From the NCBI RefSeq assembly GCF_009914755.1, contig NC_060939.1: 64,000 nt of DNA; one strand, given 5' to 3'. The notes under the pieces were generated by a model, which saw only the letters and a list, made by a program, of their open reading frames with translations, was not told the origin of the DNA and searched no databases. This document shows positions 5,195 to 54,691 of this stretch, piece after piece; the stretch's first letter is position 1, and every line of letters begins with the position of its first letter. A program made the translations under genes and the position numbers. The stretch comes from the human T2T-CHM13v2.0 reference genome, Homo sapiens.

Positions 5195-5667
5195 TGCTGC
5201 CTGGGCCAATTCTCTTAAACACTATGCTGTTCTATAATGAAGAATGTGGAAAAACTTGCATGCCTTTCACCTAACCAATATTCCCAGCTGTACCTTGAAT
5301 AAAGAGGGGGGTTTAGAACCTTAGAACATTACTGTTAATGCTTATTTCTCTAAAGTCCTTGTGAATCATAGGCAATCCCCAACATGTCTCCCACTTTATT
5401 TTTTAAATACATTCTCAGTGAAATTTATTCGATGCCACACTTCCTCTTTTTTTTCCCTGTTTTCTGGAGACTTAGGGACCTTCCTCTCCATCTGTAACAT
5501 TCAGTGGTGCCAGAACTCTGTACAGACACATCTGGGTTTCTCTTGGGCAAACACAAATGACCCAGTGGCCATCGTCCTTCCCCTGTAGACCACAACCTCA
5601 AAGAGCAGGGCTACAGCTGGTCCTGCTGAGCTCAGAGCCTCTCTGAGGGTTCTGCAGGGGCAAGGAC
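5195..5667 (+). repeat. Paralogous unit A core (MIR 5' end, conserved block, GC-richer block); lacks TATA and mini-exon
   Basis: 'attcccagctgtaccttgaataaagag...agaacattactgttaatgcttat' and 'gctgagctcagagcc...ctgcaggggcaagg' align with ~16.6-17.1, ~36.8-37.2 and ~43.8-44.3 kb. Confidence 0.9.
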
Positions 5668-6034
5668 AAGAATACATGTACATAGATATATAACATGGAC
5701 CATTTGAGCAAGGAAATGTAATGCAGACATTTACAAAACTATGTTGAAGGAATCATAGATTCCAGCCAATGTCTATAACCTTTGGGTAAGGGAAAATCAG
5801 ACAATATGCTGAAATTCATTATTGCATATTAATGAAATTGTTGGTCTCAGCATTCAGAGTGAGAGTGTTAGTGTTCGGTCTATACAAATTAATGCCTTTT
5901 TAAACCTTTCACAATTAGGACAAACTAATCTACAATAGAAACATTCATAGCTCGTTTTAAGCATGAGACTCTGAGCAATTTTGTCTTGTTGGTTTTCAGA
6001 AAAGTCTCTGTCCTTCTACTTTTGAACCAGAGGT
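5668..6034 (-). repeat. Inverted fragment of unit A downstream sequence
   Basis: Reverse complement of unit D ~44679-45033, e.g. 'atgcagacatttacaaaa', 'acaaattaatgcc', 'acctttcacaattag'. Confidence 0.85.
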
Positions 6035-9000
6035 TTGTCAACGATCAGATGGTTGTAGATATGCAGTTTTATTTGTGAGTTCTCGGTTCTGTTCCATTAG
6101 TCTCTGTGCCTGTTTTTGTACCAGTGCTATGCTGCTTTGGTTACTGTAGACTTGTATAGTTTGAAGCCAGGTAGTGTGATGCCTCCAGCTTTGTTTTCTT
6201 TGCTTTAGATTGCCCTGGCTATATTGGTTCCATATGAATTTTAAAAGAGTTTCTTTCTAATTCTATGAAGAATGTCAGTGGTAGTTTAATGGGAATAGAA
6301 TTGAATCTATAAATTACTTTGAGCAGTATGGCCATTTTATGATATTGATTCTTCCTATCCATGAGCATGGAATATTTGCCCATATGTTTGTATCCTCTCT
6401 GATTTCCTTGAGCAGTAGTTTGTAGTTCTCCTTGAAGAGGTCCTTCACCTCCATTGTTAGCTGTATTCACAGGTATTTTATTCTCTCTGTGGCAATTGTG
6501 AATGGGAGTTCATTCATTATTTAGCTCTCTGCTTGTCTGTTGTTGGTGTATAGGAATGCTTGTGATTTCTGCACATTGATTTTGTAGACTGAGACTGCTG
6601 AACTTGCTTATCAGCTTGAGAAGCTTTTGGGCTGAGTTGATGGGATTTTCTAGATAGACAATCATGTCATCTGCAAACAAAGACAATTTGACTTCCTCTC
6701 TTCCTATTTGAATACCCTTTATTTCTTTCTATTGCCTGATTGCCTTGGCCAGAACATCCGATACTATGTTGAATAAGAGTGGTGAGAGAAGGCCTCCTTG
6801 TCTTATGCCAGTTTCCAAGGGGAATGCTTCCAGCTTTTGCCCATTTAGTATGATATCGGCTGTGGGTTTGTCATAACTGGCTCTTATTATTTTAAGATAT
6901 GTTCCTTCAATACCTAGCTCACTGAGAGTTTTTAACATGAAGGAATGTTGAATTTTTTGCACTGATGTTCATCAGGAATATTGGCCTAAAGTTTTCTTTT
7001 TTTGTTGTGCCTCTGCCAGGTTTGGTATCAGGATGATGCTGGCCTCATATACTGAGTCAATTTTTTGGAATAGTATTAGAAGGAATTGTACCAGTTCTCC
7101 TTTGTACCTCTGGTAGTCTTCAGTTGTTAAACCATCTGGTCCTGGGCTTTTTTTGGTTTTAATTTTATTTATTTATTTTATTTTATTACAGCCTCAACTT
7201 CAGAACTTGTTATTGGTCTCTTCAGGGACTCAACTTCTTCCTGGTTCAGTCTTGGGAGGGTGTATGCATCCAGGAATGTATCCATTTCTTCTAGATTTTG
7301 CAGTTTATTTCCACAGAGGTGTTTATGGTGTTCTCTGATGGGGGTTTGTATTTCTGTGGGGTCAGTGGTGGTATCCCCCTTATCATTTCTAATTGTATTT
7401 ATTTGAATTTTCTCTCTTTTCTTCTTTATTTGTCTAGCTAGTGGTCTGTTTTGCTGATTTTTTCCCAACAAACAGCTCCTGGATTCATTGATTTTTTGAA
7501 GGGTTTTTCATGACTCTAACTACTTCAGTTCCTCTCTGAGCTTAGTTATTTCTTGTCTTCTGCTAGCTCTGGGGTGTGTTTGCTCTTGGTTCTCTTATTA
7601 TTTTAGTTGTTACGTCAGGGTGTCAATTTGAGGTCTTTCTCGCTTTTTGATGTGGGCATTTTGTGCTATAAATTTCCTTCTTAAAACTGCTTTAGCTGCA
7701 TCCCAGAGATTCTGGTATGTTGTCTCTTTGTTCTCATTCATTTTAAAGAACTTTTTGATTTCTGCCTTAATTTTGTTATTTACCCAGAAGTCATTTAGAA
7801 GCAGGTCGTTTGATTTCCATGTAGCTGTGTGGTTTTGAGGAGGTTTCTTAACCTTGAGTTCTAATTGGATTGTGCTGCAGTCTGAGAGACTGCCCTCAGT
7901 TATGTTGCATTTGCTGAAGTGTGTTTTACTTCCAATTGTGTGATCAATTTTAGAGTAAGTGTCATGTGGCACAGAGAAAAATGTATATTATGCTCTTTTG
8001 GGGTGGGGAGTTCTGTAGACATCTTTCAGATTCTCTTAGTCTAGAGCTGAGTTCAAGTCCTAGATATTTTTGTTAATTTTCTGACTCAATGATCTGTCTA
8101 ATACTGACAGCAGGGCATTACAATCTCCCATTACTATTGTGTGGAAGTCTAAGTCTTTTTGTAGGTCTCTAAGAACTTGTTTTATGAATCTGGATGCTCC
8201 TGTATTTGGTGCATATATATTTAGGATAGTTAGCTCTTCTTGTTGAATTGAACACTTTACCATGATGTAATGCACTTCTTTGTCTCTTTTGACCTTTGTT
8301 GATTTGAAGTCTGTTTTGTCAGAAACTCGGATTGTAACCCCTGCTTTTTTTTTCTCCTTTCCATTTGCTTGGTAAATTTTCCTCCATCCTTTTATTCTGA
8401 GCCTCTATTTTTCTTTGCAGGTGAGATGTGTCTGTCTCTTGAATACAGCACACTGATGGGTCTTGTCATTTTATCTAGCTTGCCATTCTGTGTTTTTTTG
8501 ATTGTGGCATTTAGCCCGTTTACATTTAAAGTTATTATTGTTATGTGTGAATTTCACCTTGTCATCCTGATGCTGGCTGGTTATTTTGCAGATTTGTTAA
8601 TGTAGTTGCTGCATAGTGTCATTGGTCTGTGTACTTCAGTGTTTTCATAGTGGCTCATAATGGCTTTTTCATTCCATGTTTAGTGTTTCCTTCAGGAACT
8701 CTTGCAAGGCAGGCCTGGTGTTAATGAAATCCCTCAGCATTTGCTTGCCTGAAAATGATTTTATTTCTCCTTCAATTATGAAGCATATTTTGACCAGATG
8801 TGAAATTCTAGTTTGGAAATTCTTTTCTTTAAGAATGTTGAATATTGGCCCCAATCTATTCTGGCTTGTAAGGTTTCTGCTGAGAAGTCTACTGTTAGTC
8901 TGATGGGCTTCCCTTTGGAGGTGACCTGGCCTTTCTCTCTGGTTGCCCTTAACATTTTTTCCTTCATTTTGTCCGTAAAAAATCAGATGATTATGTGTCT

Positions 9001-11007: not shown

Positions 11008-11014
11008 CATCTTC

Positions 11015-11570
11015 TCTCTTTCTAGCACTACAAGATGCTCTGTGTTAATTGTGTTGATTCTCTGCCCACACCTCATAGTCACAATTTCTTCAAGGAATCC
11101 TAATTCTTTTATTTAGTTAATAGTATAGGGAACAAAGTTCTGGGCAATAGGTGCACTCATTGCTATTGGGAATCTGTTGTTTCTAGGCTATGTCAGCTGA
11201 CAGAGCAAAGGAATATGTGTGTATACTAACTCACACATATACACGTATGTATACATGTTACTGCATTTGCCCATATGTGTCTATATAGAGTTAAACTGAA
11301 TCCCTACTAATGTCTCGTCACCACATTATCTAATCCAGCAAAACATGAATCAGTTTCTTGTTCTTGGAAAACAACTTTACCAAGTAAAGTGCAGTAGTTA
11401 TGGACAACTCCTTTGACAATTAGTATAGTCACTTGTTTTCTAAGTAATGTACATCACTCTCCCTTTCCGTCATTCCTCTCAGTGAGGATATTCCATCCAT
11501 TTATTTTACAGTTACAGAATTTTTTGTATTCCTCTCTAGGATCCCCATCTTCTGAATAGATAGATAGATG

Positions 11571-11612
<42 letters not shown>

Positions 11613-12830
11613 TTAGTTTCCATGCATTTATATTTACTCTTTGTAATGTAAAGTTCAGTATGATTTGAAAAAAAGTATCAACATATCATTACAGTATCAT
11701 AGAGAATAATTTCATTGCCCAAAATAAATGTTTTCTATTTCATCTATTCCAACCTTGCTCTCTCCCAAGCCCCTACTTACCACTAATCTTTTTTATTTTT
11801 TTCTGTAATTTCACCTTTTCCAGAGTGTCATATAAATGAAATTATACAGTATGCCTTCTTTCATGTAAGAATGTGCCTTTAATATTTGTGAAGTGTAGCT
11901 CTTGGTGGCTGAGATTTGCATTTATATTTCACTAACAGCTAAAGGTGTTGAGTATCTTTTCATATGCTTATTAGGCATAACTATAGCTTTTTTGGAGAAA
12001 TGTCTGTTCACACAATTTACCCACTTTTAATTAGAACATTTCCCTTTATATTTTCGAGTTGCAAGAATATTTTACATATTCTGGGCAATAGGCCTCTATC
12101 AACTATATGATTTGCAAACATTGTCTCCCATTCTTTCATTTATGTTGATGCTGTTCTTTGAGCCACAAAAGATTATAATTTTGATGAAGTTCATTTATAA
12201 TTTATATTTTTCTTCTTTCATTTATATTTTGGTATCATATCATAGAAACCATTCTTTTACCAAAGGCCATGAAGATTTATTCCTATATACTCTTCCATGA
12301 GATTTGTAAATTTAGCTGTTATATTTAGTTCTATGATCAATTTTGAGTCAGTCATGTGTATAGTGTGGGAGGAGTCCAACTTGGGTGTGAATATCCACTT
12401 GTCCCAGCAATATTTATTGGAAAAAATATTTTCCATATAGAGTTGACTTGGCAACCTTGTAAAATCAATTGACCATATATGCCAGGGTTAATTTTTAGAC
12501 ACTAAACTCTATTTCACTGACCTATATATTTATCCTTATACCAGTACCGCAATGTCTTGATTAATATCAGGTTGTAGGAAGTTTTAAAATTATTAAATAT
12601 GAGTTGAGTAATCCAACTTGTCCTTTAAAGACTGTTTTGTAGCACTTGCACCTCCATATGAATTTTAGAATTGCGTTGCCAATTGCTTGAAATCATGAAA
12701 AGAAAAAGCTAGGATTTTTACAGGAAATATATTGAATCTGTAGCTTTCTTTGGAAAGTAGTGTCACCTTAACAATATTAAGTCTTCTGGTCAATTATCTT
12801 GGGAATTTGTTTTTACTTTTTTGGGAATTT
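11015..12830 (-). mobile_element. Old L1MC/L1M fragments, paralogous in part to 53670-54690 and 32330-32930
   Basis: 'gcactacaagatg', 'gtgtatactaac..acacatat' shared with 53.7-53.8 kb; antisense ORF2 3' text. Confidence 0.65.
11556..11611. repeat. (GATA)n tetranucleotide microsatellite
   Basis: Run of tagatagata. Confidence 0.95.
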
Positions 12831-15469: not shown

Positions 15470-15995
15470 GCTTAGCACAACTGATGTTAATGTTGGAGAC
15501 AGCATGGCCAAGATGATTTCAAAGTTGATTCAGAAGACATTTATCTGAATGGGAAAAATTTTAGGAATACTTTTGTCAGTGTACTTTGCTTATATTTTCC
15601 ATCTCCTATAACTGCAGAACTGACATAAGGCAAATATCCATTTATTGATTTCAATTCCTTTGGATACATACCTAGAAGTGTGACTGCTAGGTCCTATAGT
15701 AGTTCCATTTTTAGTTTTTGGAGGAAACTTCATACTGTTTTTCATAATAGCTGTACTAATTTGCATGCTGTTATAAGAATTTGCTTTCTTATAACAGTAT
15801 AAGAAAGTTGCCTTTTGCACATTTGCAAAGTTGAAATAAATTTTTTCAGTAATAATAAGACAAAATTCTAAGTGATAAATATTTGTGTTATACTTTGTCA
15901 ATGGTTTTATTCTTTCATTGTGACATATAAAGTAATGGTGCATCTTACAACTAATGCAAATGATATATCTTGCAATTTACTTAGACAACACTGTC
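15470..15995 (+). mobile_element. Tc2/Kanga-like DNA transposon 3' remnant (unit B) containing a short antisense L1 fragment (~15640-15765)
   Basis: Terminal-like 'ggtgcatcttacaa'; aligns with 35230-35735 and 42880-43220. Confidence 0.55.
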
Positions 15996-16029
15996 AGTAT
16001 TAACAAATATTGGCTTAATGGTTGGTATA

Positions 16030-16650
16030 TAACTGCTATTAGTCTACATGCTTTATGTATTATTAGTTCATTCAAGCTTCACAGAGTCTCAAGTGGTAGG
16101 CATTATTACCACTCCTATGGTCCAGTTCCAATCTGAGGTAAAGTTCCGTAAGAAAGAAATAGAAGCTTGAGATTAACTCAGTCTATCTCCAGAGTCAGTG
16201 CTCACATCAACTATGTTAGCATATCTTTTCTCCTGTATGGTAATTACTCTCTAGGTCTAGTTTCAGAAATCTTACTCTACCTCATGGTCATTAAGTTACT
16301 TTTCTAAGTTAAACTCTAAAAACTGTAACAAATTACTTTTACATTTAGGTCAATGATCTACCTGGAATTGAATTTTTGTGAAATGTGAGATCAAAAGTCA
16401 GATTTTAATTTCACTCTATGGATATTTAATTTCCTAGAATATTTGTTCAAAATGTTATTTTCCCCCATTGGTCTTATGTATAATTCACTTGTTTGTATAT
16501 GCACATGCCTTTATTCAGTTCTCTTTTCTCTTTTTCATTTACTTATTTCCCTTTGTGCAAATGCCACTGTCTTAGTTAATGAAAGACTTCACTTAACACA
16601 AGTATTTTCCATCCAGAGCCCTGTCTCTTCATCACTGTGCTGTTCTGTAA
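16030..16650 (-). mobile_element. MIR split by an old antisense L1 fragment (unit B; same arrangement in C and D)
   Basis: MIR core-like 'ttcattcaagcttcacagagtctcaagtggtaggcattattacc'; MIR 5' end 'cagcacagtgatgaagagacagggctctgga' on minus. Confidence 0.6.
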
Positions 16651-17140
16651 TGAAGACAGAGAAGAGTGAAAACTGCATGTCTTGTACCTACACAAATATT
16701 CCCAGCTGTGCCTCCAATAAAGAGTAGGGTTTAGGATTTTAGAACATTGCTGTTGACACTTATGTCTCTAATGCCCTTGTAAATCTTAGGCAATCCTTCC
16801 AACTCCACTCACCCTATATTTTAGAACATTCTCAGTTAATTTTATTTGATGTCACCCTCACCCATCTTCATTTTCCTTTTCTGCTTTTCTGGAGCCCTAG
16901 GGAATTTCCTAAAGGCTCCCCAGTGACAGCCAGGCATGGCAAGAACCAAGAAAGGTACCCCTGAATCCTCCTGGACAAGTAGAGACAACACAGTGGCCAA
17001 GATCTTCCTTCTCCAGACAATGTCCGCCAAGGACAGGGCCACAGCCTGTGCAGCTAAGCCCAGATCCTCTAGGTAGGGTCTGCATGTCCAGCTGCTTCCT
17101 TCCCTCCCTTTGGGTTCAGTTGGGGAAGTCAGCCCTTTGG

Positions 17141-17220
17141 TATAAAGCAAAAGTTTGTTCCAAAACCATTCTGCTTACTGACCAAGGAAACATTACTGCT
17201 TCACACCTTGCCTTGTAATA
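17141..17220 (+). promoter_or_regulatory. Unit B candidate TATA box, ~49-nt non-coding first exon (17166-17214) and GT donor
   Basis: TATAAAG at 17141; 'ccattctgcttactgaccaagg...cttcacaccttgcctt|gtaata'; conserved with C and D. Confidence 0.5.
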
Positions 17221-17231
17221 TTATATTAGTT

Positions 17232-18332
<1,101 letters not shown>

Positions 18333-18397
18333 TTAACATTTGTTTATTAATTTTTTTTGGCCATACAAACTTTATCTACAGTGTTTTATTTTTGTAT

Positions 18398-18533
18398 TGT
18401 ATATTAATGCCTTCTGTATTTAATAATGCTACCATAAATGTATTTAATAATGCTACCATACCAAAAGGCATATATTAATGCCTTTTGTATTTAATAATGC
18501 TACCATAAAATGTATTTAATAATGCTACCGTAA
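18398..18533. repeat. Local tandem duplication (4 x 'tgtatttaataatgctacc') with a small palindrome
   Basis: Direct repeats plus 'aaaaggcat-atatta-atgcctttt'. Confidence 0.85.
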
Positions 18534-18848
18534 TAACTTTTCAAAATCGCTTTTTAATCATTTTCATCTTTTCAAGCATCAGTCTTTCCTAAATTGAATG
18601 GAAATATCACTTGTTTTAGGGAAGACAGATGGTACATATTCTCTGTATTTGCCATAAATATCCTCTGAAATACCTCTGGTTGTGAAGAAGAGACTTGTCT
18701 AGCAGTCACAAGGCAAAATGTATCCACAGCCTGTTGCTTTAAAAGAGCTCTGAATGTTTTCATTGTATGGCCTAGCTTATTCTAATTTTGAGAGATTCAC
18801 AAAGGCATTAACTTATATAGACAGAACACTGAGATGTAGACATCATCT

Positions 18849-18973
18849 AAATGCAGACACCAGTCACTTCTTTACTGTACAAATATGAACTTCATTGTAC
18901 TGCTTGCAAGAAATGCAGACACCAGCCACTTCTTCACTGTGCAGATATGAACTTCATCATACTGCTTGCAGGA
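18849..18973. repeat. 62-bp tandem duplication
   Basis: 'aaatgcagacaccag...actgcttgca' at ~18849 and 18911. Confidence 0.9.
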
Positions 18974-21901
18974 AAATGCAAGATGGCAGTGTCATATAAA
19001 GTTGCCTTTTTGTGGTCAAGAATAAGACAAAATTGTTGAAGGCTAAGTTCACCCAAATGGCTTCTTCTTGTGTCTGGATTTTTTCCATAGTTCTTTGATC
19101 CATGTGCCACATCAGTGATGATGGTACATAGCAAAGCTATCTCATGGCAGCTGGCATGAATACTCTTTCCCCTTCCTAGCACTGGACATGGAGAATGGCT
19201 TGATGAAACTCAGCCACCTTGTTCTCCAGACTCTCAGTTCCACCTTCTCAACTTGAGTGTCTTCCAAGGTCCTTGCCACACCCACAGCCTGGAAACTCAA
19301 CCATAACCCAAGGCTACAGTAGGACTCACATCACTATTTCTCATCTCTCAGGGATAACTGTCCTTTTTTAAAAAAAAAAAATGTTCAGGCATTTGCAAAC
19401 CATGGATTCCTATACCTGTGAATTTTTTGTTTTCACATGGCATAAGGAATATCTAGTCCCTATTAGTTTCTTGATGACATTTTGGTTCATTTGTGCAATG
19501 AATCCACCATAAGTGTACTCCGAACTGTATGTTTCTACTAGGCAATATTAAGACGTGTAAAAAGAGATGTGAGTCAAACCCATAGAGACAGACAAGTTAA
19601 CTGACCCACGTAACATTAAAAGGGAGGTGTAATAGCAACAACACAACAAAGGTTGCTGCCTGGGCATTAGAAGTAGAACACCACACCCAAATGGCTAAAA
19701 CTAGTGGCCAGAGATAAGAACTTAGAGGCATCTCTGTCACCTAGCAGGCTGAGTTTCCACCTTCCTGCTGCTTTCTTTAAACATGCCATTCAGGCATTTG
19801 CCCGTGAACTTGAAGTAACATACCCATTATTTCCTAATATATACCCCAGCTGCCGCTCTCCTCGCTTTCTTTCTCTCTTTGTCTCTCTCTGACCGTAGGA
19901 TGGAGGACTGCCCTCCTGACTCATTGTGCCCTTCCTGGCAGGATCTGTAAGTAAAAATCTTTGAACTTATTTGTTTTGGGGGCTACCCTAGACCAGATTT
20001 TCCCCAGGACACTAAGGAGAACACAGGTTGAGCTCCCAACATCAAAGCCATGGTCAGGCAGGAATAAACTGGACACAGGTCAGACAAGAGCCACAAGGGT
20101 GTCTGCCAGTATCAATGTTTTCCATGTAAGGGACACCTGGTCACAGGTCTTACAGCTAGGCGTTAGAACGTCTACCAGGTAAGAGAAGTAGCCTGTGAAA
20201 GACACAGTATAAACACCCACATCCAGTTCCCCATTATGTACTGTCAGGGCAGGGTGGCTAGCCTCTCTGATACTGGAACCCCAGCTTAGCTGGGGCATAT
20301 CAAAACAATAGTCAGTGAGGATGGGACGGTTGGCTCAGTTGTACACCTCCATGATGCCTATGAGCTGCAAATGGCTCAGTAACTGCCTCTCCCCCGTGGC
20401 CCTGTCACTTTGGGAAGCCAGCACTGCTTGCCAGTGGTATGTAAATGCTATTGCCAGTGTTGCTGTGTTCTCACACAAAACTGTCAACACTGTGAAACAG
20501 ATTCCCCTGTGGTGTCTGACCACTGGTGTCCAGTGCAAGGCAGGTGTGTTTCCTGATAGTCTCTCATAGAGACGACCTGGGGGAAAGTCTGAACGTTATT
20601 AATTGGCTGGTGCACAGCACACAGACAAAGTCGCGCCAAGGAGCGCTCAAGAGGATGGTAGTGCTCACCTCCACTCTTTGGACAAAGCCAGGCATGGACT
20701 CTACCTCCTGGGAGCCTAGGAGAGTCCCCTAGATAGTGCTGGTTAGAGAAGCCAACTGCTGGGCCCACTGTGTCAATGTCAGGACTGAAGCTGTGACAGC
20801 AAAAAGGGTAAGTAAAGCAAGCCCTGACTCCTGAAGGAGGCAGAATCACCAGGGAGATACGCTGCCAGGCAAGCCCAATTATGTTGCTGCACACCTTGCT
20901 TCTGTTGCCACGCGTACCCCGACCCCATAGGGTATCATGAGTCGAATTCCTGGAACAATGTGCCTACGGCTCTGATGGGCAAATACAAATGCCCTGCTCA
21001 GCCAGTCCTTGCCCCACCATAGACAGTAGATGATGTCAAACAGGGCTTAGATAAATACAAATTTCCCAAGGAAGCTGCCTGGGCTGTACACAATGCCACT
21101 GCCAGTCATTGTGCAAAGCTCTAGAGCTGCAGCCTGGAGCTCAGGAGCCAACTCTAATAATGATTTTTTTTTAATTGATCACACTGCTGCATGTTGACCC
21201 TGGTCCCTCAGAGGTCAGTGGGGACACCCTGGAATGGGAGGTAGCATTTATGAGTCTGGGAGGAGGCAGCCTCGTCCCCAGGTGTCCTGGTCACTACCCA
21301 CCAAATCAAAATGACCAAAGATAATCAGCAGGACCAAGAAATGGGCACCAAAAAGGGAGACCCGTGCTTACAATAGAAGCTACTTGACACTCCCAGGTGC
21401 TCAGGAGCTTGTCAGGTAAACATCTGAAGACAGAGAGGAACAAAAAGTCATTTTTAGCCACATAGAAATACAAGCCATTCTAAAGATTTTACTCAAAAGG
21501 AAAAAAAAGATCAACAAAGGACTGCTTTTTTTGCAGTGGGGGTTGTCCAGGAGAGTTGCTGCTGCTTAGAGACACTGGACCTCTTTCCTCCTCCCTCTTC
21601 CTCTTATCAGCCAGAGGCAGAAACTGAGAACCTCAGCTTCAGGTGGCCTAGCACAGAAAGAGAGAGACAGAGGGAGAGAGACTGCCCCTTTAGGTGGCTA
21701 CAAGTCCAAGAAAAAAAGAGCGGAACTTGAAACTTTATGTGAGCAAACTCCAACTTTAGCAAACATAATGCTAGTCTTAGATTACTTTTATGGACTTATG
21801 AAAAACTCCTAGATACGGGTGGGTAGGGGAAAAGAAAAATAATAAAATGTATTATTATCTTTAGTAACCTCAACATTTCTTAAAAATTACTTACTGTAGA
21901 G

Positions 21902-22117
21902 CGGGGTGTCCAATCTTTTGGCTACCCTGGGCCACATTGGAAGAACAGTCTTGGGCCACACATAAAATACACTAACACTAACAATAGCTGATGAGCTGAA
22001 AAGAAATAGCAAAAAAAGGTTATAATGTTTTAAGAAAGTTTACAAATTTATGTTGGGCCACAGTCAAAGCCGTCCTGGGCCACATGTGGCCCACATGCCA
22101 CAGGTCAAACAAGCTTG
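21902..22117 (+). mobile_element. MER30 (hAT-Charlie non-autonomous) inserted in the ERV
   Basis: 'ggggtgtccaatcttttggc...caagcttg' with perfect 8-bp TSD ctgtagag. Confidence 0.92.
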
Positions 22118-22199
22118 CTGTAGAGGTTTTGACAATCTTTTATAAATGCCTTCTGGAGTCTCTTGACCACTCATAATGAAGATTAGTTGCTACAGGGCT

Positions 22200-41819: not shown

Positions 41820-43220
41820 TAGGTCAAAAGATTTTATGAAAACCATAAAGCAGCTACATCTGCAGTAACTGATCAAAAACAATTTGTATGACCGCCATAC
41901 ATGGGATCATAAAGGAGGAATGGGGAAAATGGATATTCAGTTTTTCTGGATGAATAATTTAGATTTAGAATATCATTTACACATAAATTGAATTTTTGTT
42001 ATTTCTAGTTTACTCTTCAGGTATTCCTTTGGACAATGTCTATAAAGTCCAGCCCTGAAATTTGAATTAAATAACTGTAAAAATTAACATGTAAAATAGA
42101 AATTACAGTATTACTGAAATAATCTAATATACATAATAACTAGGTAGAAGGTAAATAAAGTTTGCCAATTTGTATGAATCTATATTTCAACAGGTTTTCT
42201 CACTAACAAAGCAGAATACAGCCAATGAGACACCACAATATAACACTGAGAAATAGGCAGCCACAGAGAAAAATAATATATTCCACTAATGCTAGAGGAT
42301 GTATTTTCACAACTTTCAAATAGAGTTCCATCTAACAATTGATAGTGTCAAAGCACTGTTGCCCAGAATATGGTCATATGTGGTTCTCCTCATATGCACA
42401 CACATGAACTGGGTCTAAAAAACCTTTCATTGGCCAGGCGCAGTGGCTCATGCCTGTAATCCCAGCACTTTGGGAGGCCGAGGTGGGCAGATCACGAGGT
42501 CAGGAGATCAAGACCATCCTGGCTAACACGGTGAAACCCCGTCTCTACTAAAAAATACAAAAAATTAGCTGGGCATGGTGGCAGGTGCCTGTAGTCCCAG
42601 CTACTCAGGAGGCTGAGGCAGGAGAATGGCGCGAACTTGGGAGGAGGATCTTGCAGTGAGCCGAGATGGTGCCACTGTTCACTGCACTCCAGCCTGGGCA
42701 ACAGAGGAAGACTCTGTCTCAAAAAAAAAAAAAAAAAAAAAACAAACCTTTCATTGACATCTTCTACTAAAATCATCAACACGGAAACTGGCAGACGGCT
42801 GTCAGTAGGTTAGAAGGATAATCCCACAGAGTGTAGCAAAGGAATCTCACAAGAAATGCAGCATCACCAGTGCTTCTGATTAGCAGAGATGATGATAATG
42901 AAGGAAAAATCATGGATGAGATGAGTTTAAAAGGGATTCAGAAGAGTTTGTTCTGAGTGGGAAAAATTTATCAGTACCTTTATTAACATATTTTGCTTAT
43001 AATTTCATCTCATTAAATAAATGGAATGAAAAAAGACAAGCATCCACACACATATACATTAATAAGAATTATTTTCAATATTTGCTAAATACTTGAAGTC
43101 ATAAGAAGCATTTTGTCATACTTTGTCAAGGTTTTATTCCTTCACTGTAACATAAAATCATGTTGCATTTTACAATTATGGAAATGATCCATATTCCATT
43201 TTGTAGAAAACAGTATCAGT
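41820..43220 (+). mobile_element. Tc2/Kanga-like transposase remnant (unit D), interrupted by AluY
   Basis: 'KLAD...IIPQSVAKESHKKCSITSASD'; colinear with 34430-35735. Confidence 0.55.
42432..42743 (+). mobile_element. AluY
   Basis: Full Alu, long A tail, TSD 'aaacctttcatt'. Confidence 0.95.
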
Positions 43221-43824
43221 ATTAACAAATACTCACTTCATGGTTGATATAAGTCTATAGGTGTTATGTATCATTTGATCATTCAGTTCTCACAAAGTCT
43301 CACGTGGTAGGCACTACTCTCACTCCCATGTTCAATTTCTGAATCTGAGCTAAGTCCTACAAGAAAGGAAAATGAGGACCTTGAGTTTGACTTGGTCCAT
43401 ATCCAGTCCTTGCTCCCGTCAGCTATGTTAGAATATCTTTTCTCTTGTGTGGTAAATATTTTCTATGACTAATTTAAGGAATCTTACCCTATCCCATAGT
43501 CACAAAGTTATTTTCCTAAAGCAGGTATAAATACTGTATTAAATTATTTTTATATTTGAGTTTATTATCTACCTGCAACTGATTTTGTGTGTAGTACAAA
43601 ATTAAAGATGGATTTGATGTTCCCCAATGAATATTTGATTTCCTGGATCATTGATTGTAAAAGTCATCTTTACCCCATTAATTTCGCTTATAAATTATTT
43701 TCTTTTGTATGATTTTGTCTGTTATTGAGCTCTACTTATTTCATTGCTTTATCTCTATGCAAATATCACATTTTCTTAATTACTAAGAGAATGCATTTAA
43801 CATAAAAATTACCCATAGCCTGTT

Positions 43825-44300
43825 ATCTTACTCACTGGTCTATTCTGTAAGGAAGAAAGGGAAGAGTAAAAACCTGCATACCTTGCACAAATACCTGTAT
43901 TCCCAGCTGTACTCTGAATAAAGAGGAGGGTTTAGAACATTGGAATATTACTGATGATACTTATGCCTCCAATGTCCTTGTGAATCTTAGGTAATCCTCC
44001 TAATATTAGTCTCCACGTTAGTTGCTTACTACTTTTTTGGTGAATTTTATTAGAGCTCAATGTGCTTTGTTACAGGTCTCTACTTTTTGTAGCCTGGGGA
44101 TTTTCTACTCCCCCAACAGCCAGATGAGGCAGAAACCCCTACAGACATCCCTATGTGCCTCCTGTGCAAGTGCAGTTGCCCCTTGAAGGCAGTTCTCCTG
44201 CTGCAGACCACGCCCACCAAGGGCAGAGTCACAGCCACTGCAGCTGAGCTCAGAGCCTTCTGTGGGGTCTGCAGGGGCAAGGCCAGCTGTCCCCTGGGAT
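43825..44300 (+). repeat. Paralogous unit D conserved block and GC-richer block
   Basis: 'attcccagctgtactctgaataaagaggagggtttagaac', 'gcagctgagctcagagccttctgtggggtctgcaggggcaagg'. Confidence 0.9.
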
Positions 44301-44324
44301 AGTTTGAAGAATGCAGTTTGTTTG

Positions 44325-44401
44325 TATAATAAAGATGTTTCTCTACGTCATTCATCTTGCTAATCAAGGACGTTTAACAGCTTCAGACTTTCCTGGTAAT
44401 A
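44325..44401 (+). promoter_or_regulatory. Unit D candidate TATA box, 49-nt first exon (44347-44395) and GT donor; SNRPN upstream U1-exon-like from memory
   Basis: TATAATAAAG at 44325; 'gtcattcatcttgctaatcaagg...cttcagactttcctg|gtaata'. Confidence 0.55.
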
Positions 44402-45442
44402 TTTGTTCTTGCCTTTTTTTGGCAAATATAGTTAACACTTCTATGCATTTTTTACCTCACATAAACATCATCTAAAACCATTCATATTTCTGTATTGCGT
44501 ATTAATGCTTTTCATTCCTGTATATAAAAATGCATTCATAATCGCTTTTCAAAATACATTTTCAGTTACCTTTTCAAGCATCATTCTTTACTAATTGAAT
44601 GGAAATATCACTTTTATTGAGAAAGACAGATGTTACACAATTTTCATTTTAGTATTTTCTAGAAATTTGCTGTGAAATACCTCAGGTTGAAAAGGAGAGG
44701 GACACAGGCTTTTGTGAGGACCATAAGACAAAATTTACTGAGAGTCACATGCTTAAAATAATCTTTCATTGTTTGCACTATATGGCTTAGTTTGTTCTAA
44801 TTGTGAAAGGTCACAGGCATTAATTTGTGTGGAGGCAACACCAAAAATCCCATTGTGAATGCAGAGAATCACTTTGTTACTGTGCAAGTAAGAATGTCCT
44901 CATATTGTTTGTTTTTATTCTTACCAAAAAGCTGTAGACATTGTCTGGAATCTTTGATTCCTTCCAACTTGTTTTTGTAAATGTCTGCATGATGTGTTTT
45001 TGTCCAGACAACCAATATATAGACATGTATTTTTTTTTTACTCTTTGATGAGTGATTATTAAATTGTTTTTAGTTTTCATTGAAATAAAAATGCCATTCA
45101 GGAAATGTCATACATCTCCAGGCAGCATATATTTTTATAACATGGCCTTGGAGAAAAAGAATTAAAAACTTTATTTTCTGTTATCAGTGAACTAGCAAAA
45201 TATTTTTAAAAGTTATCACAGGTGTGAGTTTTTTTTAGATTTTATGTTTTTTTGACTCAGTTAATAATATACCTACCTCAGTTATCTAGCTGCTGTGTCA
45301 ATATCCACTGTTTTAGGCTAAACCTTTTATACTCCTCTGGCATAGTTTGCATGTGAACAGATGGTTCAGTGTCCTAACTAGTGAAGGTGAGATTCCTAAA
45401 GCACATTTGAACAGGAATTTAGGACTCAAGAAGCAATTCTGA

Positions 45443-45585
45443 GTTCTGAGTATATTAAAGGTAGGCTAGATTAAGTTATTATGTTTGGTAAGTTATGTGT
45501 ATTACATGTATTTTCCAATTAAATTATTTTCAACTTACGATGGGTTTATCAGGAAGTACACCCATCATAAATTGAGGATCATCTG
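45443..45585 (-). mobile_element. MER47A (Tigger) first part, inverted
   Basis: 'ttttcaacttacgatgggtttatcagga...aattgaggatcatctg'. Confidence 0.75.
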
Positions 45586-45685
45586 TAATTTAAATGGAGG
45601 TTTCTATTTAAAAGAGCATAATGCATTTCTCATCAAAAGAAGGAAAACCAGTAATTTTTAGGTCCTTTATTTGTGTCCCTGAAAA

Positions 45686-46003
45686 TCTTCATAAATTCTA
45701 TAAAAAGAGTGAAAACAGGTGAATCAAAACACAGATTCCATTCTGTCGTATAAAACAGAACATCACAAATCATTTTCATAGATAGCTTTTTTCTAGTTTT
45801 TAGAGCTGGATATACGTTTTTGTTTTTTGTTTTACATGATTCAACGGCCTCAGTAATGTCACTTCATAGATTCTACGAAAGAGTGTTTGGAACCTGCTGA
45901 ATCAAAACACAGGTTCCATTCTGTGATAATAAAAATGTACATCACAAAGCGTTTTCACAGACAGGATGTTTCTAGTTTTTTATAGTTGGATATTCGTTTC
46001 TTT
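45686..46003. repeat. Isolated diverged alpha-satellite, about two monomers
   Basis: Two units ~178 bp apart ('gaatcaaaacacag.ttccattctgt' at 45721 and 45899) with alphoid motifs 'gattctac.aaagagtgttt', 'catcacaaa', 'tctagttttt'. Confidence 0.8.
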
Positions 46004-46414
46004 TAAATTTGGGGATGACCTTGCCCTGCTGTCTTTCACTACATACATACCACAGCTATATAGTTTGCATGGAGTACTGGGTGGCTCTCAATATTTAGGA
46101 AAATTAAGATTAGTGGTATCAAATCACAATACAATAAAATAACGAAGATGATGGAGACCAGGGGAACTGTCTTGTTTTGTTTTGTTTTTAAGAAGATCTG
46201 CCCTTGAAATTCTCTGTATAGAGTATAGAAGACCACAGCCCCTGACCACAGCATCACCTGGCAAACAAATATCCATCTATCATTTGGAATAAAAATATCC
46301 ATAAAGTATCAATGCTCTTGGAAACTTGGATTCTCACAGCTCATAAATGTTTTGGAAATCCTGCCAAAAATATTTTTTAGATCACTAGACTGAAGATTTC
46401 ATTGCTTGTGTAGC

Positions 46415-46622
46415 AGCCAGTTGGGCAAAGTTATCTAACACAAAGCCTATTTTATAATAAAATGTGGAATAGCTTATGCAATTTATTGACTACTGTACTG
46501 AAGGTGAAAAACACAATGGTTTCATGGGTCCTTGAAGTACACTTTCTGCTGAATTCATGTCAGTTTCCCACTATCATAAAGTTGAAAAATCTTAAGTGAA
46601 ACATCCCAAGTCACAGAGCATC
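46415..46622 (+). mobile_element. MER47A (Tigger) second part
   Basis: 'cagttgggcaaagttatctaacacaaagcctattttataataaa...tactgtactgaa'. Confidence 0.8.
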
Positions 46623-47634
46623 AAAATGTAATCAGTATATCAGTCACACATAACAACACATTGTAGAAAATGCAGGTTTGGTTTAGGTGTGGTGGTTCAT
46701 CCTACTCATAAGCAGTTCTTTCATCTCTAACGAGTCGCCTCTCATCGTGGGCTAATGCTGCAACATGGGCTGTGTCATGTAAAAGCCTGTCTTTTTACAG
46801 TTAGGAATAAGATGAAAGCGTTGAAGGCTAAGTTCATTAAAATGACTTCTTCGAGTGGCTTTGCCTTTTCTCCTGGACTGCTCCCATAGTTCTGTGACCC
46901 ATGTCAATATAGAAAATGGTAGCACAAGCCAACCCTCTCTGCATAGGTGCTGGCATGATTCCTCTCTTCCACTCTTAACACTGGGCTTGGATAATGGCTT
47001 GATGACACTGAGCAAAACTCTTCTTAAGACCCTCAGTTTCATCTTCTCGACACAAAAAGTCTCAAAAGTCCTTGCCACACTACAGAAGGAAACTTAAAGC
47101 TGTAACTTGACACAATCTTAGGGCTCCTATAATTGTTTTAAGTCTTTCAGGGATTACTGTCCGTCCTTGATTGATGTACAGTGTCTTGCAAACCATTGGT
47201 CCATATAATTTTTATTGTTCCGTATAATTTCCATTGTTCCATATAAGCTGTCCAGTTTTTTACATTTGTTGAGGCATGTCCAAACCATATTTGTTTTTCC
47301 ACAGCGTTTTGATTCATACCTTCCACAATTACACAATGATTACTGCATTCCCAGCTGTTTGCTTCTAGCTCGCAATACAAAGGAAAAATGTGTGTGAAAC
47401 TCACAGAGAAAAATCGATAATTAAACTCCGTTTGTAACACTAAAGGGAAGATCATAATTGACCTATACACAGTATCAGTAGGAGTCTCCATGGAAGTCAG
47501 CCACTGTGTGTCAATGAATCAAATATTTCACATGGAACTATAAGAAAGGATATCTCTGTCAATTAACTACAGTCAAGCATTAGAACGGGGATGTGTTCTA
47601 AGAAATGTGTCATTTGTCGAGTTGGTCATTTTAT

Positions 47635-48513
47635 TGTCAATGAAAAGAGTCAAACTCTGTAAAATATTTGAAGAGATTTATTCTGGGCCAAATATGGCCC
47701 GGGACACAATCTTCAGGAGGTCCTGAGAACACGCACCCAAGGTGGTTAGGGTGCAGCTTGGTTTTATACATTTTAGGGAGGCATGAGATAGCAAATACAT
47801 ATAAGAAATATATTGGTTTGGTCCAGAAAGGCAGGTATTCTAAGAGGGGTGGGGGGTGAAGGTAAACTTAAACATTTTCTGATTGACAATTGGTTGAGTT
47901 GGTCTAAAGACCTGGAATCAAAGAAAGGAATGTCTCAGTTAAGATAAAAGGTTGTGGAGACCAAAGTTTTATCATGCAGATGAAGCCTCCAGGTAGCAGG
48001 CTTCAGAGAGAATAGGTTTTTGTGTTTATTTTTGTTTTAGAGACAGAGTCTCACTCTATCGCCCAGGCTGGGATGCAGTAGTGCGATCTTGGGTCACTGC
48101 AACCTCCACCTCCAGGGTTCAAGCAATTCTTCTGCCTCAGCCTCTCGAGTAGCTGAGATTACGGGATGCGCCAGGGTGCCTAATTTTTGTATTTTTAGTA
48201 GAGACAGGGTTTTGCCCTGTAGGCCAGGCTGGTCTTGAACTCCTGACCTCAGGTGATCTGCCCGTCTGGGCCTCCCAAATTGCTGGGATTACAGGCATGA
48301 GCCACTGCACCTGCCTAGGTTTTAAAATGTTTCTACTCAGACTTAAAGTTGGTATTAATATTAATGCTGGAGAGGTATACTGAGGCATGACCAACCCCCA
48401 CTTCCTGTTAGGGCCTGAACCAGTCTTTCAGGTTAAATTTTAAAAGAGCTCTGGCTGAGGGGAAAGTCCATCCAGATGACTGGGCACTCTTAGAATTTTA
48501 TTTTTTGCTTACA
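47635..48513 (-). mobile_element. MER4-family solo LTR containing an Alu
   Basis: 'tgtcaatgaaaagagtcaaactctgtaaaatatttgaagag' ... 'tagaattttattttttgcttaca'; TSD ttat/ttgt. Confidence 0.85.
48016..48316 (-). mobile_element. AluS
   Basis: Alu consensus inside the LTR. Confidence 0.9.
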
Positions 48514-48918
48514 TTGTGAACATCATAGAGTGCACTTACACAGACCTAGCTGGTATATCCTCCTATACACCTAGGCTGTATGCCTATTGCTTCTAGGCTA
48601 CAAACCTTTGCAGTGTGTTACTGTACTGAATATTCTAGCCAATTGTAACACAATGGCAAATATGTGTGCCTGTAAACATATCTAAACATGGAAAAGGTAA
48701 GAATACAGTATTAGACATAAAAAATGGCACACCTGTATAGGGCACTTACCATAAACGGAGCTTGCAGGACTGGAAGTTGCTCTGGGTAAATTAGTGAGTG
48801 GTGAGTGAAGGTGAAGGCCTAGGACATTACTCTCTGCTTCTGTAGACTTTGTAAACATGGTTTTTGTCCCTTCCATCATTTTCCAGGTGCAGATACGATC
48901 TATGGATAAGAAAATTCA

Positions 48919-49299
<381 letters not shown>

Positions 49300-49899
49300 T
49301 CAACACCACCTGGTATCAATACATTGTGGGTGAAAACATTCTAACAGGAAGCTGTAGAATAGGGAGATCTGCAGCTGAACAGACAAGGGACCCAATGAGA
49401 ACTCCAAAGACAGTGAAAACTGGGAACATGCAGAGATGGTGGAGGGTGGCAGTGGGTGGGCCTTTCGGGACTTTTCCCCAAGGATAAACACATGTTCACC
49501 AATGTCTGTCTGCATGACCTCTTCCATGTTCTTTGATATTCTCCTAGAAGCCTCATGATTTTCTCGTGTTTCTCAGAGAATAATATGTATTTTGTCTTTA
49601 TCCTTGTACCCAATACCTTGTATACCTAACTATACATACCTAAATTTCTTATGGGTGAATTATTCACAGTTAAAAAATGTGCCAACTTTGTAACCAAATG
49701 AAATTACCCTGGTTTATACACCCTTCATGTCTTCAGAGTCCTGCCTGCATGCCTATAAGCAAGGGTTAAGTTTGGGGTGTTGTATTTTCCTAGTTAACAT
49801 TGGATACTTACATGTTCTGGGAACTTTTAGGCTATCAATACCCAATTAAAAATTCCAGTTGCTTTATCTTTTACTTCTTTTCCTGCGGTCTTTAAAATA

Positions 49900-51045
49900 T
49901 ATCTTTTCTTCTATTTGCTTTGGATTTAACTGTCTCTACTTTTTTCTTTTAAGCTTCCTAAGGTGGAAATTTAGATGAGTGATCTTTAGATTCCTCTTTT
50001 CTCATATTACACTAAGGCTATCCGTTTCTCTCTAACCTTCCACATTGCATTCCATGTTGCATTTGATAGGTTGTAATTTCCTTTAAATTTAGTTCAAAAT
50101 GTTTTTAAAATTTGTCCTGAAATTTCTTCCTTGACCCATGTGTTATTTAGAAGTATGTTATTTTGCTATGTATTTTGCAATTTACCATTTATTTTTCTTT
50201 TACTGATTTGTAGCTTAATTCTGTTGTGGTTTGAGTGCATGTGTTGAAGGATTCCCATTCTTTTAAATTTGCTAAGGTGTGTTTTATGGGGGAGAATTTG
50301 ATCTATCTTAGTGAGTGATTCACGTGGGCTTCAGAAGACTCTGCATTCTGGCCATTGTTGGATAGTCTGTGGGTGTCAATTGTATCAAGTTCATTGATTG
50401 TGCTGCTGTGTTCAACTGAATTCTGCTTTTTTTCTGCCTACTGGATCTGTCTATTTCTGAAAGAGGAGTGTTGAAGTCTACAACTACAAGGTGAATTCAA
50501 CTATTCCTCCTTGTGGTTTTAAGTTTCTGCCTCACATAGATTGATGCCTTGTTGTTAGATGCACACTTGTTCAGGATTGTTACATCTTCTCGGACAATTG
50601 ACACCTTATTATTATGTACTGCATTCTTTATCTCTGACAGTGGAGAATATTTGTCACAATTAATAATTTAATAATAGACATTATCATTCATTAACAACCA
50701 CATTTTACTTAGATTTTCTCTTTTACTTAACAAATATTTGTGTTCCAGGATCCCATCCAGGATAACCCATCATTTTTAGATATCATGTCTCATTAGGCTC
50801 ATTTTCCCTATGTTGATGATAATTACATCCCTGATTTGGAATTTCTCTGATGTTTTTCTCATGATTTTACTGGATTATGGATTTGGGGGAGGAGGAAGTT
50901 GTCATTTTTATCACATCTTATCAAAGGTAGATATTATCAACACACCTTTTCTGTGTTGATAATTTTATCACCTGGATAAGAGAGATTTATCAGATTACTC
51001 CACTGTGAAATTACTCTCTTTTCCCATTTCACCAGTTTCCTTTTT
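49900..51045 (-). mobile_element. Old L1M/L1MC fragments of unit D
   Basis: Colinear with 28140-28900 and 31430-31880. Confidence 0.65.
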
Positions 51046-51084
51046 GAAAACATGTCACTGTACTTCTTTGAGGAGTGCTTTGTA

Positions 51085-52656
<1,572 letters not shown>

Positions 52657-53324
52657 TAATTCTCATTGTAGAGATCTTCCACTTCCTTGGTTAGCTGTAT
52701 TTCTGGGAATACAGCTTATTCTTTTTGTGGCTATTGTGAGGAAGATTGCATTCTTGATTTGGCTCTCAGTTTGAATGATGTTGGTGTATAAAAATGCTAC
52801 TGATTTTGTACATTGATTTTGTATCCTGAAACTTTGCTGAAGTTGTTTATCAGATCAAGGAGATTTGGGGCAGAGACTATGGGGTTTGCTATGTATAGAA
52901 TCATATCATCTGCAACTGAGGATACTTTGATTTCTTCTCTTCCTATTTTGATGCCTTTTATTTCTTTTGCCTGATTGCTGTGGCTGGGACTTTCAATACT
53001 ATGTTGAATACGAGTGGTGAGAGAGGGCAAATATAGTATATTCTCACTTATAATCAGCATCTAAACTTTGAGTACACATGGACACAAGGAAGGGGACAAC
53101 AGACACTGGAGTCTACCTGAGGGTAGAGGGTGGGAGGCGGATGAGGATCAAAAAACCACCTATCAGGATATGTGTTTATTACCTGAGTGACAAAATAATC
53201 TGTACACCAAACCCCAGTGACATGCAATTTACCTATCAGTAAATTTTATCTACAGGTAAAGCACATCTGCACATGTATCCCTGAACCTAAAATCAAAGTA
53301 AAAAAAGAAAATATGTCACTATAC

Positions 53325-54690
53325 ATAGCACTATACATAGAGGGTATTCATGCTTCAACTTCTTATGAAAAGAGTATCTGAAAATGTCGTTGAAGCTTCT
53401 TCAACAAGGGCAATTTGGCTGTTTTCCATAATTTATTTCATATTTATCCAATTATTTATTTGTATCCTGGAAAATATTGTATGAAATTATGGCTATTTAA
53501 TTTACACTGTTTTATAATTCTTTCTTTATTCTATTGCTCAAATTGTTTCAATGCTGGCCACTAGAGGTCTCTCAGTTGGCTCCTGTATCATTTTGAAATA
53601 ACCCACATCATTGTGGTTTGCTTTAGTTTATTTCATTGGCTGTGTGTGTTATTTCACACTTTCTTACTTTCAGGCACTACAAGATGATCCAGGCAAATTG
53701 TGTTTATTTCATGCCCAAGCCAAGTATCCACCATTTCTTCAAAGAGTCGCTACAGGGTCATCTGTTGACTGGGGGCCTTGTTAGCTGACACAGCAAAGAA
53801 ATATACCTGTGTATACTAACACACACATATAAATGTATCTATAAATATTTCCTCATGTGTTCATGTGTATCTTTATTAAGTTAAATATGAATTCCCCTAA
53901 TGTCTCTAACACCAACGGCATCTAATCCAGCACCACGTGAGTCAATCTCCCCATTCCCTCTACTTCTTCGTAATCTCTCACTCTAACAGTGAGAAATTTG
54001 GCCTCCTTTACTTAATAATTGAGTTCCAAATTACATGTGCAGTGGCTTCAGAATAGTTAATCTATACCCCTAGTGAAACAGCATTACCAACTAAAGTACA
54101 GTGCTCATGGACACTCCTTTGGCTTTTAGGCTCAGAATTTCCACTTATTTCCTTAGTTACTTAGGTCAGCATCTTTCCCCACCTTTATAATCTCCCTTCA
54201 GTGAGATTATTTTATACATTTGTTATTCATTTATCTTATTTTGTCTGCATTTCTCCTCCAACATATTAACTAGGTATTTAATTTTCAAACATTTATGTTC
54301 ACTCTTTGAGTTATAAAGTTCTATAGGGCTTCAAAAACAGTACAATATACCCATCATTACAGTGTCCTTCAGATGAGTCTCACTGCCCTATAGAAGTTCC
54401 ATGTACTTTACATATTCAGCCTTCCTCCTTCAAAAGCACCTAGTAACCATTAACCGGTTTAACATCTCCATTGTTTTACCTTTTCCAAAGTGTCATATCA
54501 ATGGAATTATACAGTCTGTAGTCTTTCTAAACTGGCCTTTATCATTTCAAAATATGCCTTTAATTTTTTTTGAAGCATATGGTGATTTATATGTTCACTT
54601 CCTTAAGAACAAATGGTGTTGAAAATCATTTTATATGCTTAAAGGAGTTTGTATTGCTTCTTTGGAGAAATGTCACACAATTTACCAATT
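53325..54690 (-). mobile_element. Old L1MC-type fragment (paralogous to 11015-12030)
   Basis: Shared 'gcactacaagatg', 'tctaatccagca', 'ttaccaa.taaagt.cagt'. Confidence 0.65.
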
Positions 54691-54691
54691 T

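What the first reader, a model, noticed from the sequence alone, without database searches (positions are those of the whole stretch)
5195..54690. Hidden ancient four-copy tandem array forming the scaffold of the window
Seen: the order Kanga-like remnant, MIR split by L1, unique block, GC-richer block, mini-exon, downstream unique blocks, L1MC pieces recurs in B (from 15.5 kb), C (34.4 kb) and D (41.8 kb), and partly in A (5.2 kb). Further B/D colinearity: 18980-19330~46760-47140, 26750-26870~47450-47570, 27860-28050~49350-49530, 28140-28900~49900-50640. Inference: the duplications post-date MIR/Kanga/L1M and pre-date the copy-specific Alus, LTRs and the ERV. By eye the copies look too diverged for standard segmental-duplication tracks.
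Basis: seen in the sequence. Interest (0 to 1): 0.72.

Follow-up and report, generated by a model that had tools for sequence, protein, structure and literature searches.

The report
Ancient array of SNRPN upstream promoters
The window holds four decayed copies of a DNA unit found about 40 times, only in the megabase before the Prader-Willi gene SNRPN; the unit carries relatives of SNRPN's upstream start exons U1A and U1B and was likely spread by ancient tandem duplication.

Summary
Copies A, B, C and D are colinear at 66-75% identity, and the reversed controls gave 0 hits. They are four of about 40 units, mostly head-to-tail, confined to chr15:21.55-22.62 Mb upstream of SNRPN. D is their close sister: 88% over the exon core, tree support 98/99, and two DNA-transposon insertions at the same sites. 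B and C share one L1 insertion. D lost 3 of the 4 CpGs shared by U1A and U1B, and A, B and C are further decayed, so these are likely silent promoter relics. Duplication of the U1 start sites is known (Färber 1999, title seen, content recalled). Ten paper searches showed no account of the ~40-unit array, its nested history, or a 330-bp block conserved at 81% across eight units. A weak, register-specific likeness of the U1 exon to SNURF-SNRPN exon 1 is suggestive only.

The parts
5195..5668 (+). Unit A: truncated core with a decayed U1-exon paralog (about 5520-5668); 1 CpG in the 282-bp core
   Evidence: 69-73% to D and U1B
5671..6040 (-). Unit A: downstream block inverted relative to B, C, D and U1B, starting at the exon's 3' end
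   Evidence: 76% to D 44673-44990, reversed
11012..12032 (+). Unit A: distal end, colinear with D 53661-54695 and so with the E and U1A units
15472..19628 (+). Unit B, proximal part: core, decayed U1-exon paralog (about 16960-17095) and downstream blocks; interrupted by a B-only L1PA-type 3' end (17233-18314, label recalled)
15642..15850 (-). L1 fragment at the same junction in B and C, absent from six other aligned units
19630..26739 (.). B-only ERV-like element with two LTRs (about 19630-20310 and 26040-26739); the site is empty in D and U1B; LTR-LTR K2P 0.28-0.29
26741..28867 (+). Unit B, distal part, with the empty site of the second DNA transposon (26864) and the L1M piece shared with D (28149-28867)
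27097..27414 (+). Purine-rich ~330-bp block, mean 81% identity over 28 pairs of 8 units; lies 5.6-5.9 kb downstream of the start in the U1B unit; deleted in D
31469..31966 (+). Unit B: last colinear piece (matches D 50685-50897)
34429..38840 (+). Unit C: core, decayed exon paralog (0 CpG) and downstream block; C-only L1PA-type piece in the MIR-like stretch (35846-36232) and C-only Alu-monomer-like insert (37245-37355); labels recalled
41826..54690 (+). Unit D, the most complete unit in the window; sister of E (22.52 Mb), U1B (22.56 Mb) and U1A (22.59 Mb)
44150..44292 (+). D paralog of the U1B/U1A promoter core and first exon, 72 kb upstream of the U1B start; 88% to U1B (91% outside CpGs); both CpGs of the NRF1-like motif changed to TpG, KLF-like motif kept (motif names recalled); candidate for Färber's nearer extra site
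45443..46420 (-). D-only inversion that breaks the shared MITE
46418..46610 (+). Part of a ~390-bp dispersed MITE (MER44/Tigger7-like by recall) at the same TA site in D, E, U1B and U1A; empty site in the units at 21.648 and 22.313 Mb
47570..48857 (+). Second DNA-transposon insertion (Tigger3-like by recall) at the same TA site in D, E, U1B and U1A; empty in B and in the units at 21.649 and 22.314 Mb
42433..42745 (+). D-only Alu with target-site duplication inside the shared 5' block

Best explanation
The four units are paralogs of the SNRPN upstream start-exon cassette (U1B/U1A), members of about 40 units confined to chr15:21.55-22.62 Mb, likely made by repeated tandem duplication and, in this window, likely silent relics. 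Shown: homology, restriction to the locus, mostly common orientation (34 of 37 clusters), nested clades marked by shared insertions (D/E/U1B/U1A by two DNA transposons; B/C by one L1), a younger 87-97% layer at 21.8-22.3 Mb, and CpG loss in A-D. Inferred: unequal crossing-over spread a 13-17-kb cassette roughly 70-90 million years ago, with a second round about 50-75 million years ago (rate recalled). Most copies were then methylated in the germ line and decayed, while U1A and U1B stayed in use as start sites that send transcription towards the imprinting centre. D likely stayed constrained for a time, then lost its CpG-dependent motif.
For: Genome-wide matches lie only in the interval: 39 of 39, 15 of 15 (27), 26 of 26 (28), 28 of 28 (29), 23 of 24 (39), 54 of 56 (75). 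The best D matches span the RefSeq starts at window 116260/116289 and a site 33 kb further on. The tree gives D/E/U1A/U1B SH-aLRT 97.8 and UFB 99. Filled and empty sites agree with it. K2P is 0.32-0.39 among A-D, 0.22-0.34 among D/U1A/U1B, and 0.28-0.29 for the LTR pair of the B-only ERV. CpGs in the core: U1B 10, U1A 7, D 1, C 0, B 1, A 1. RefSeq has no transcript in the window (task annotation); Rfam gave 0 matches.
Against: No expression, methylation or other-species data could be examined, so silence and dates are inferred. D's exon is more conserved than its flanks (83/90 vs 79%, Fisher p 0.0008; D-specific changes 5/128 vs 157/1525, p 0.009). That could mean D still works or was converted, and the best-window permutation gives only p 0.11. 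B+C is not resolved by the tree and rests on one insertion. Spacing is irregular (7-79 kb) and most units are partial. The count comes from heuristic clustering, and the search tool warns that its counts are lower bounds.
Confidence: 0.8

Rival explanations
1. D is still a working, tissue-restricted start site (oocyte, testis or brain) for SNURF-SNRPN/SNHG14 upstream transcripts.
For: Excess non-CpG conservation of D's exon, and its KLF-like motif is kept. u1A and u1B are described as oocyte-specific starts (PMC12229668 passages). Many spliced ESTs lie between NDN and SNRPN (PMC2268926 passage).
Against: 3 of the 4 CpGs shared by U1A and U1B are TpG/CpA in D; CpG o/e is 0.05 against 0.31-0.37; the AG of a downstream acceptor-like site is lost; no RefSeq model.
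Confidence: 0.2
2. D's exon resembles U1A/U1B because of a later gene-conversion tract, not because of past selection; the array itself is neutral.
For: The high-identity tract is short (about 150 bp) among 75-78% flanks, and the best-window test is not significant.
Against: U1A and U1B show the same local peak against each other (81/88), as selection on both predicts. The flanks and two insertions already make D their sister.
Confidence: 0.3
3. The unit is an unannotated composite mobile element that hopped locally, or the matches are chance neighbours of dispersed repeats.
For: The unit is largely built from repeat remnants (MIR-like, L1M, DNA transposons).
Against: Non-repeat parts match nowhere outside 1.08 Mb; 34 of 37 clusters share orientation; insertions sit at the same junctions; no transposase or other Pfam match above cut-off in the unit frames tested.
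Confidence: 0.03

Closest known systems
Human SNRPN upstream start exons u1A/u1B and their extra paralogous sites (Färber et al. 1999, PMID 9931342; title seen in reference lists; content recalled: two further sites, 63 and >700 kb upstream)
   Same: Same exon and promoter sequence, same strand, same locus. D is the only third copy found with a near-intact exon. The unit at 21.646 Mb (914 kb upstream) is the only distant one of the 19 cores compared with a CpG-rich core (9 CpG) and fits the recalled far site.
   Different: About 40 units with several kb of shared flank rather than four sites. D lies 72 kb, not 63 kb, from U1B. A, B and C are not described in anything I could read.
[quoted passage not shown]
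   Same: Multiple duplicated upstream promoter/first-exon copies in front of Snrpn. In mouse their oocyte transcription sets the maternal imprint, with redundancy among copies.
   Different: Sequence homology to the human unit was not testable here. The window's human copies look decayed.
PWRN1/PWRN2 partial duplications centromeric to NPAP1 (Buiting et al. 2007; title and review passages seen; the copies themselves recalled)
   Same: The 87-97% layer at 21.8-22.3 Mb likely corresponds to them.
   Different: Those are young duplications of blocks that already contained several old units. The window's copies belong to the old layer. I had no annotation to place PWRN exons on the units.
Standard segmental duplications (>=1 kb, >=90%; definition recalled)
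   Same: Multi-kb paralogous blocks with embedded repeats.
   Different: Identity is only 66-78%.

Membership tests
SNRPN u1A/u1B start-exon duplicon family | Sequence homology to the U1B/U1A promoter and first exon, same strand | tested here: met
   D 88%/84% to U1B/U1A in the core; A, B, C 57-75% in the core, with 67-73% flanks
SNRPN u1A/u1B start-exon duplicon family | Shared flanking unit and shared insertions with U1A/U1B | tested here: met
SNRPN u1A/u1B start-exon duplicon family | Identity of D with the published extra site 63 kb upstream (distance recalled) | tested here: inconclusive
   D is 72 kb from U1B; no exon-bearing copy near 63 kb among 15 matches; the paper is not held
SNRPN u1A/u1B start-exon duplicon family | CpG-bearing promoter core | tested here: not met
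   0-1 CpG in A-D against 7-10 in U1A/U1B; so these are relics of the family, not shown to be functional start exons
SNRPN u1A/u1B start-exon duplicon family | Initiates transcripts spliced to SNRPN exons; parent-specific methylation | not testable with these tools
   No RNA or methylation data
Tandem array | Local, head-to-tail copies | tested here: met
   34 of 37 clusters on +, all within 21.547-22.612 Mb; further places to 22.624 Mb; spacing irregular
Segmental duplication (standard definition) | >=90% identity | tested here: not met
   66-78% for window copies
Dispersed transposable-element family | Copies of the unit on other chromosomes | tested here: not met
   only embedded pieces are dispersed
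Kanga (Tc1/mariner) remnant | Match to a Kanga consensus or transposase | tested here: inconclusive
   No repeat library; no transposase in Pfam; one 126-bp chr2 match at 73%
Paralog of SNURF-SNRPN exon 1 / PWS-IC promoter | Significant sequence homology | tested here: inconclusive
   Identical 15-mer at the donor-like site; top of 842 overlapping GC-rich control windows (z 3.8; 3.1 without the anchor, 1 of 842 higher); but nhmmer E 2.4, no BLAST hit seen in the uncut part, and upstream-only shuffles not significant

The most novel reading that the evidence does not exclude
The megabase upstream of SNRPN is a fossil array of about 40 copies of a promoter cassette that descends from the SNURF-SNRPN exon 1/PWS imprinting-centre promoter itself. 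It is the human counterpart of the rodent U-exon arrays that set the maternal imprint by oocyte transcription. The array still carries a second, unrecognised constrained element, the 330-bp purine-rich block, which may explain the many imprinted non-coding transcripts and methylation marks of the interval.
Probability: 0.3. Interest if true: 0.82.

Novelty: new variant of a known kind. Interest (0 to 1): 0.55.

Why it matters
[quoted passage not shown] It yields a short list of testable sites: D, the CpG-rich unit at 21.646 Mb, the CpG-rich second elements at 21.612 and 21.632 Mb, and the conserved block. These bear on the open question of which upstream starts drive imprint-setting transcription in human oocytes. 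It also matters for therapy: CRISPR activation near the upstream exons switches on maternal SNRPN (PMC11872474 passages), so near-identical exon paralogs such as D are candidate extra targets or off-targets.

Tried and rejected
Coding function: 11 open frames and 24 frames read with X at stops gave no Pfam match above cut-off inside the unit. The 131-aa frame over the conserved block has no PDB match below E 0.29, and 47 of 48 frames in 8 copies carry stops. RNA gene: Rfam gave 0 matches in the window, L031 and L032. Short-period tandem repeat: TRF does not see the unit. AluJ-like insertions at 29.2 and 32.1 kb as age bounds: rejected, because D lacks the matching sites. A as sister of the inverted unit at 21.547 Mb: only 116 bp overlap, unresolved. 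Extension of the unit to the SNRPN exon 1 region: only Alu/L1 matches by BLAST in the part that was shown, and none by profile. The AS-IC region was not fetched. The first tree was anchored on D and so biased; it was redone unanchored. Six papers were not held: Wawrzik 2009 (two ids), Landers 2004, Pace and Feschotte 2007, Rodriguez-Jato 2005, Sharp 2010. No supplements were read; a published map of these repeats could sit there.
Full report
1. Observation. Self-comparison of the window with Alus and AT arrays masked shows same-strand, colinear matches among four stretches. B-D has 12 of 12 plus-strand HSPs in one chain (3,886 bp), C-D 7 of 7 (2,802 bp), B-C 5 of 8. A matches all three over 5200-5668 and matches D again at 11012-12004. 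Reversed D against A, B and C gave 0 hits. At least 14.7 kb of the window matches fetched parts of other units; much of the rest that I read is inserted repeat.

2. Dispersed repeat or local family. Searches of the whole T2T genome with parts of D gave matches only on chr15:21.55-22.61 Mb: 39 of 39, 15 of 15, 26 of 26, 28 of 28 and 23 of 24. With 46750-47580, 16 of 33 matches were in the interval and the other 17 were confined to an embedded 130-bp repeat. A distant copy as query gave 54 of 56 in the interval. A further block gave 21 of 41, the other 20 matching only an Alu tail. In contrast, 49900-50640 is a dispersed L1M-type piece (1,732 candidates, 40 scored), though the U1B unit shares it together with its flank. 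Clustering the hits gave 42 groups. Dropping four 66-bp-only hits and A's inverted piece leaves 37, of which 34 lie on the SNRPN strand. add places at 21.611, 21.651, 22.512, 22.587 and 22.624 Mb. So there are about 40 mostly partial units in 1.08 Mb. The tool warns that counts are lower bounds and that no match does not prove rarity.

3. What the unit is. The two best matches to D span the RefSeq starts of SNHG14/SNRPN (window 116260/116289) and a site 33 kb further on. I take these as U1B and U1A: reviews name exon 1, U1A and U1B as the three major starts (PMC12898306 passage), and the order and spacing are recalled. D is 88% identical to U1B over the core; B, C and A are 57-69%. The unit runs at least 13 kb in D and 17 kb in U1A.

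4. History. An unanchored tree of 17 copies is star-like at 62-75%, with one well-supported clade that includes a window copy, D/E/U1A/U1B (97.8/99). It also has a supported group of six units at 21.83-22.16 Mb containing young pairs at 95-97% (87-96% among further copies). Insertions agree with the tree. A 390-bp dispersed MITE (2,333 candidates) sits at one TA site in U1B, E, U1A and D and is cleanly absent at 21.648 and 22.313 Mb. A second DNA transposon is at one TA site in the same four and absent in B and two distant units. B and C share an L1 fragment at one junction, absent from six other aligned units and unmatched in the other 34 of 36 loci (loci overlap and not all span the site). 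Copy-specific events: D's Alu with target-site duplication and D's inversion; C's L1PA-type and Alu-monomer-like inserts; B's L1PA-type insert and ERV-like element; A's inversion. Repeat names are recalled; no repeat library was available. K2P distances are 0.32-0.39 among A-D, 0.22-0.34 among D/U1A/U1B, 0.28-0.29 between the ERV's LTRs, and 0.07 between the two L1PA pieces. At a recalled 2.2e-9 per site per year this is about 70-90 and 50-75 million years. That is inside the 105-180 million-year window for assembly of the domain (PMC1626109 passages). Monomeric Alus are older than AluJ (PMC5753468 passage), so C's insert is consistent with an old B/C split.

5. State of the promoters. In the ~280-bp core of 19 copies, U1B has 10 CpGs, U1A 7 and the unit at 21.646 Mb 9; D, B and A have 1, C has 0, and the rest 0-3. 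U1A and U1B share an NRF1-like palindrome (name recalled); D has both of its CpGs as TpG, and 3 of the 4 shared CpGs are deaminated. Outside CpGs, D's exon is better conserved than its flanks (83/90 vs 1296/1639, Fisher p 0.0008; D-specific changes 5/128 vs 157/1525, p 0.009). A best-window permutation gives only p 0.11, and B, C and two distant copies show no such peak. E has deleted the promoter and exon. No RNA family or protein was found. The likely reading: U1A and U1B are the live copies, D a late casualty, A-C old relics. Past gene conversion, or present activity of D, is not excluded.

6. Two further leads. (a) A purine-rich 330-bp block 5.6-5.9 kb downstream of the U1B start, present in B at 27097-27414 and deleted in D, averages 81% over 28 pairs of 8 units. 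For five deep pairs it is 80-85% against a 68-69% background (composition-adjusted p 1e-8 to 1e-15) and above the best background window; for the U1B-U1A pair it does not exceed the best window. It is non-coding by stop content. Constraint or early homogenisation would both fit; it is unexplained. (b) SNURF-SNRPN exon 1, located as the CpG island in L044, shares an identical 15-mer with U1B at the donor-like site and aligns with few gaps over about 300 bp, with an NRF1-like motif in register. It outscored all 842 overlapping GC-rich control windows (z 3.8), and all but one without the anchor (z 3.1). Against this: profile E 2.4; upstream-only shuffles reached the observed score in 13 and 77 of 300; the short downstream part in 1 and 4 of 300; the long downstream part was not significant by dinucleotide shuffle, 114 of 300. 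This is suggestive only.

7. What is known. Färber et al. [quoted passage not shown] I recall that it reports two sites similar to u1A/u1B at 63 and >700 kb; D (72 kb) and the 21.646-Mb unit are the natural candidates, unconfirmed. Mouse has nine U exons whose oocyte transcription supplies AS-IC activity redundantly (PMC3248558 passages); rodents have multiple duplicate U1 copies (PMC10138222 legend). [quoted passage not shown] Ten full-text searches showed no description of a ~40-unit array. All 14 papers opened were read as term passages only, the primary papers were not held, and no supplements were read, so prior description cannot be excluded.

8. Verdict. Real, larger than reported, and tied to a known family: a new architecture for a known kind of element. 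Interest 0.55; the novel case is put at probability 0.3, interest 0.82.

Noticed in passing
window ~51085-52658: Mariner-type element with inverted-repeat-like ends, split by an Alu at 51196-51506; minus-strand frames match Transposase_1 (E 6.7e-12) and HTH_48 (E 3.4e-6), broken by stops and frameshifts; HSMAR2-like by recall.
   Followed up: partly
window 58806-60248: A 1.44-kb degenerate (AT)n array (735 copies; GC 2.5% in 59001-60000), unusually long; a smaller AT-rich array lies at 4015-4357.
   Followed up: no
L004 ~2234-2513 (chr15:21,646,700-21,646,950): The only distant one of 19 U1-type cores compared that keeps CpGs (9) and the KLF-like motif; candidate live promoter and candidate for the published far site.
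   Followed up: partly
L040 ~1000-1400 and L043 ~1000-1400 (chr15:21.612 and 21.632 Mb): CpG-rich stretch (10-15 CpG per 200 bp) at the place where the U1B unit has an acceptor-like site about 6.2 kb downstream of its start; much CpG-poorer (0-4) in five other units. It may be a second promoter-like element of the cassette.
   Followed up: partly
window 39130-41800: GC-rich LTR-like insertions between C and D, with inverted internal matches (39357-39479~41664-41539).
   Followed up: no
window 19630-26739: ERV-like element of an old LTR family (best matches elsewhere 70-72% over the full LTR, 406 candidates); four open frames tested had no Pfam match above cut-off.
   Followed up: partly
just beyond the window, about 50 kb upstream of U1B: PMC12229668 (passages) describes CGI-40/TSS4 with a maternally biased non-coding RNA there; one search finds a partial unit nearby at 22,511,785-22,512,353. 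The relation between the two was not examined.
   Followed up: no
L035 ~1908-2057 (unit E, chr15:22.524 Mb): E, a sister of D, has deleted about 1 kb holding the promoter and exon.
   Followed up: partly
window 3-2262 and 7910-10136: L1 pieces 73-80% alike, partly direct and partly inverted; not part of the unit.
   Followed up: no
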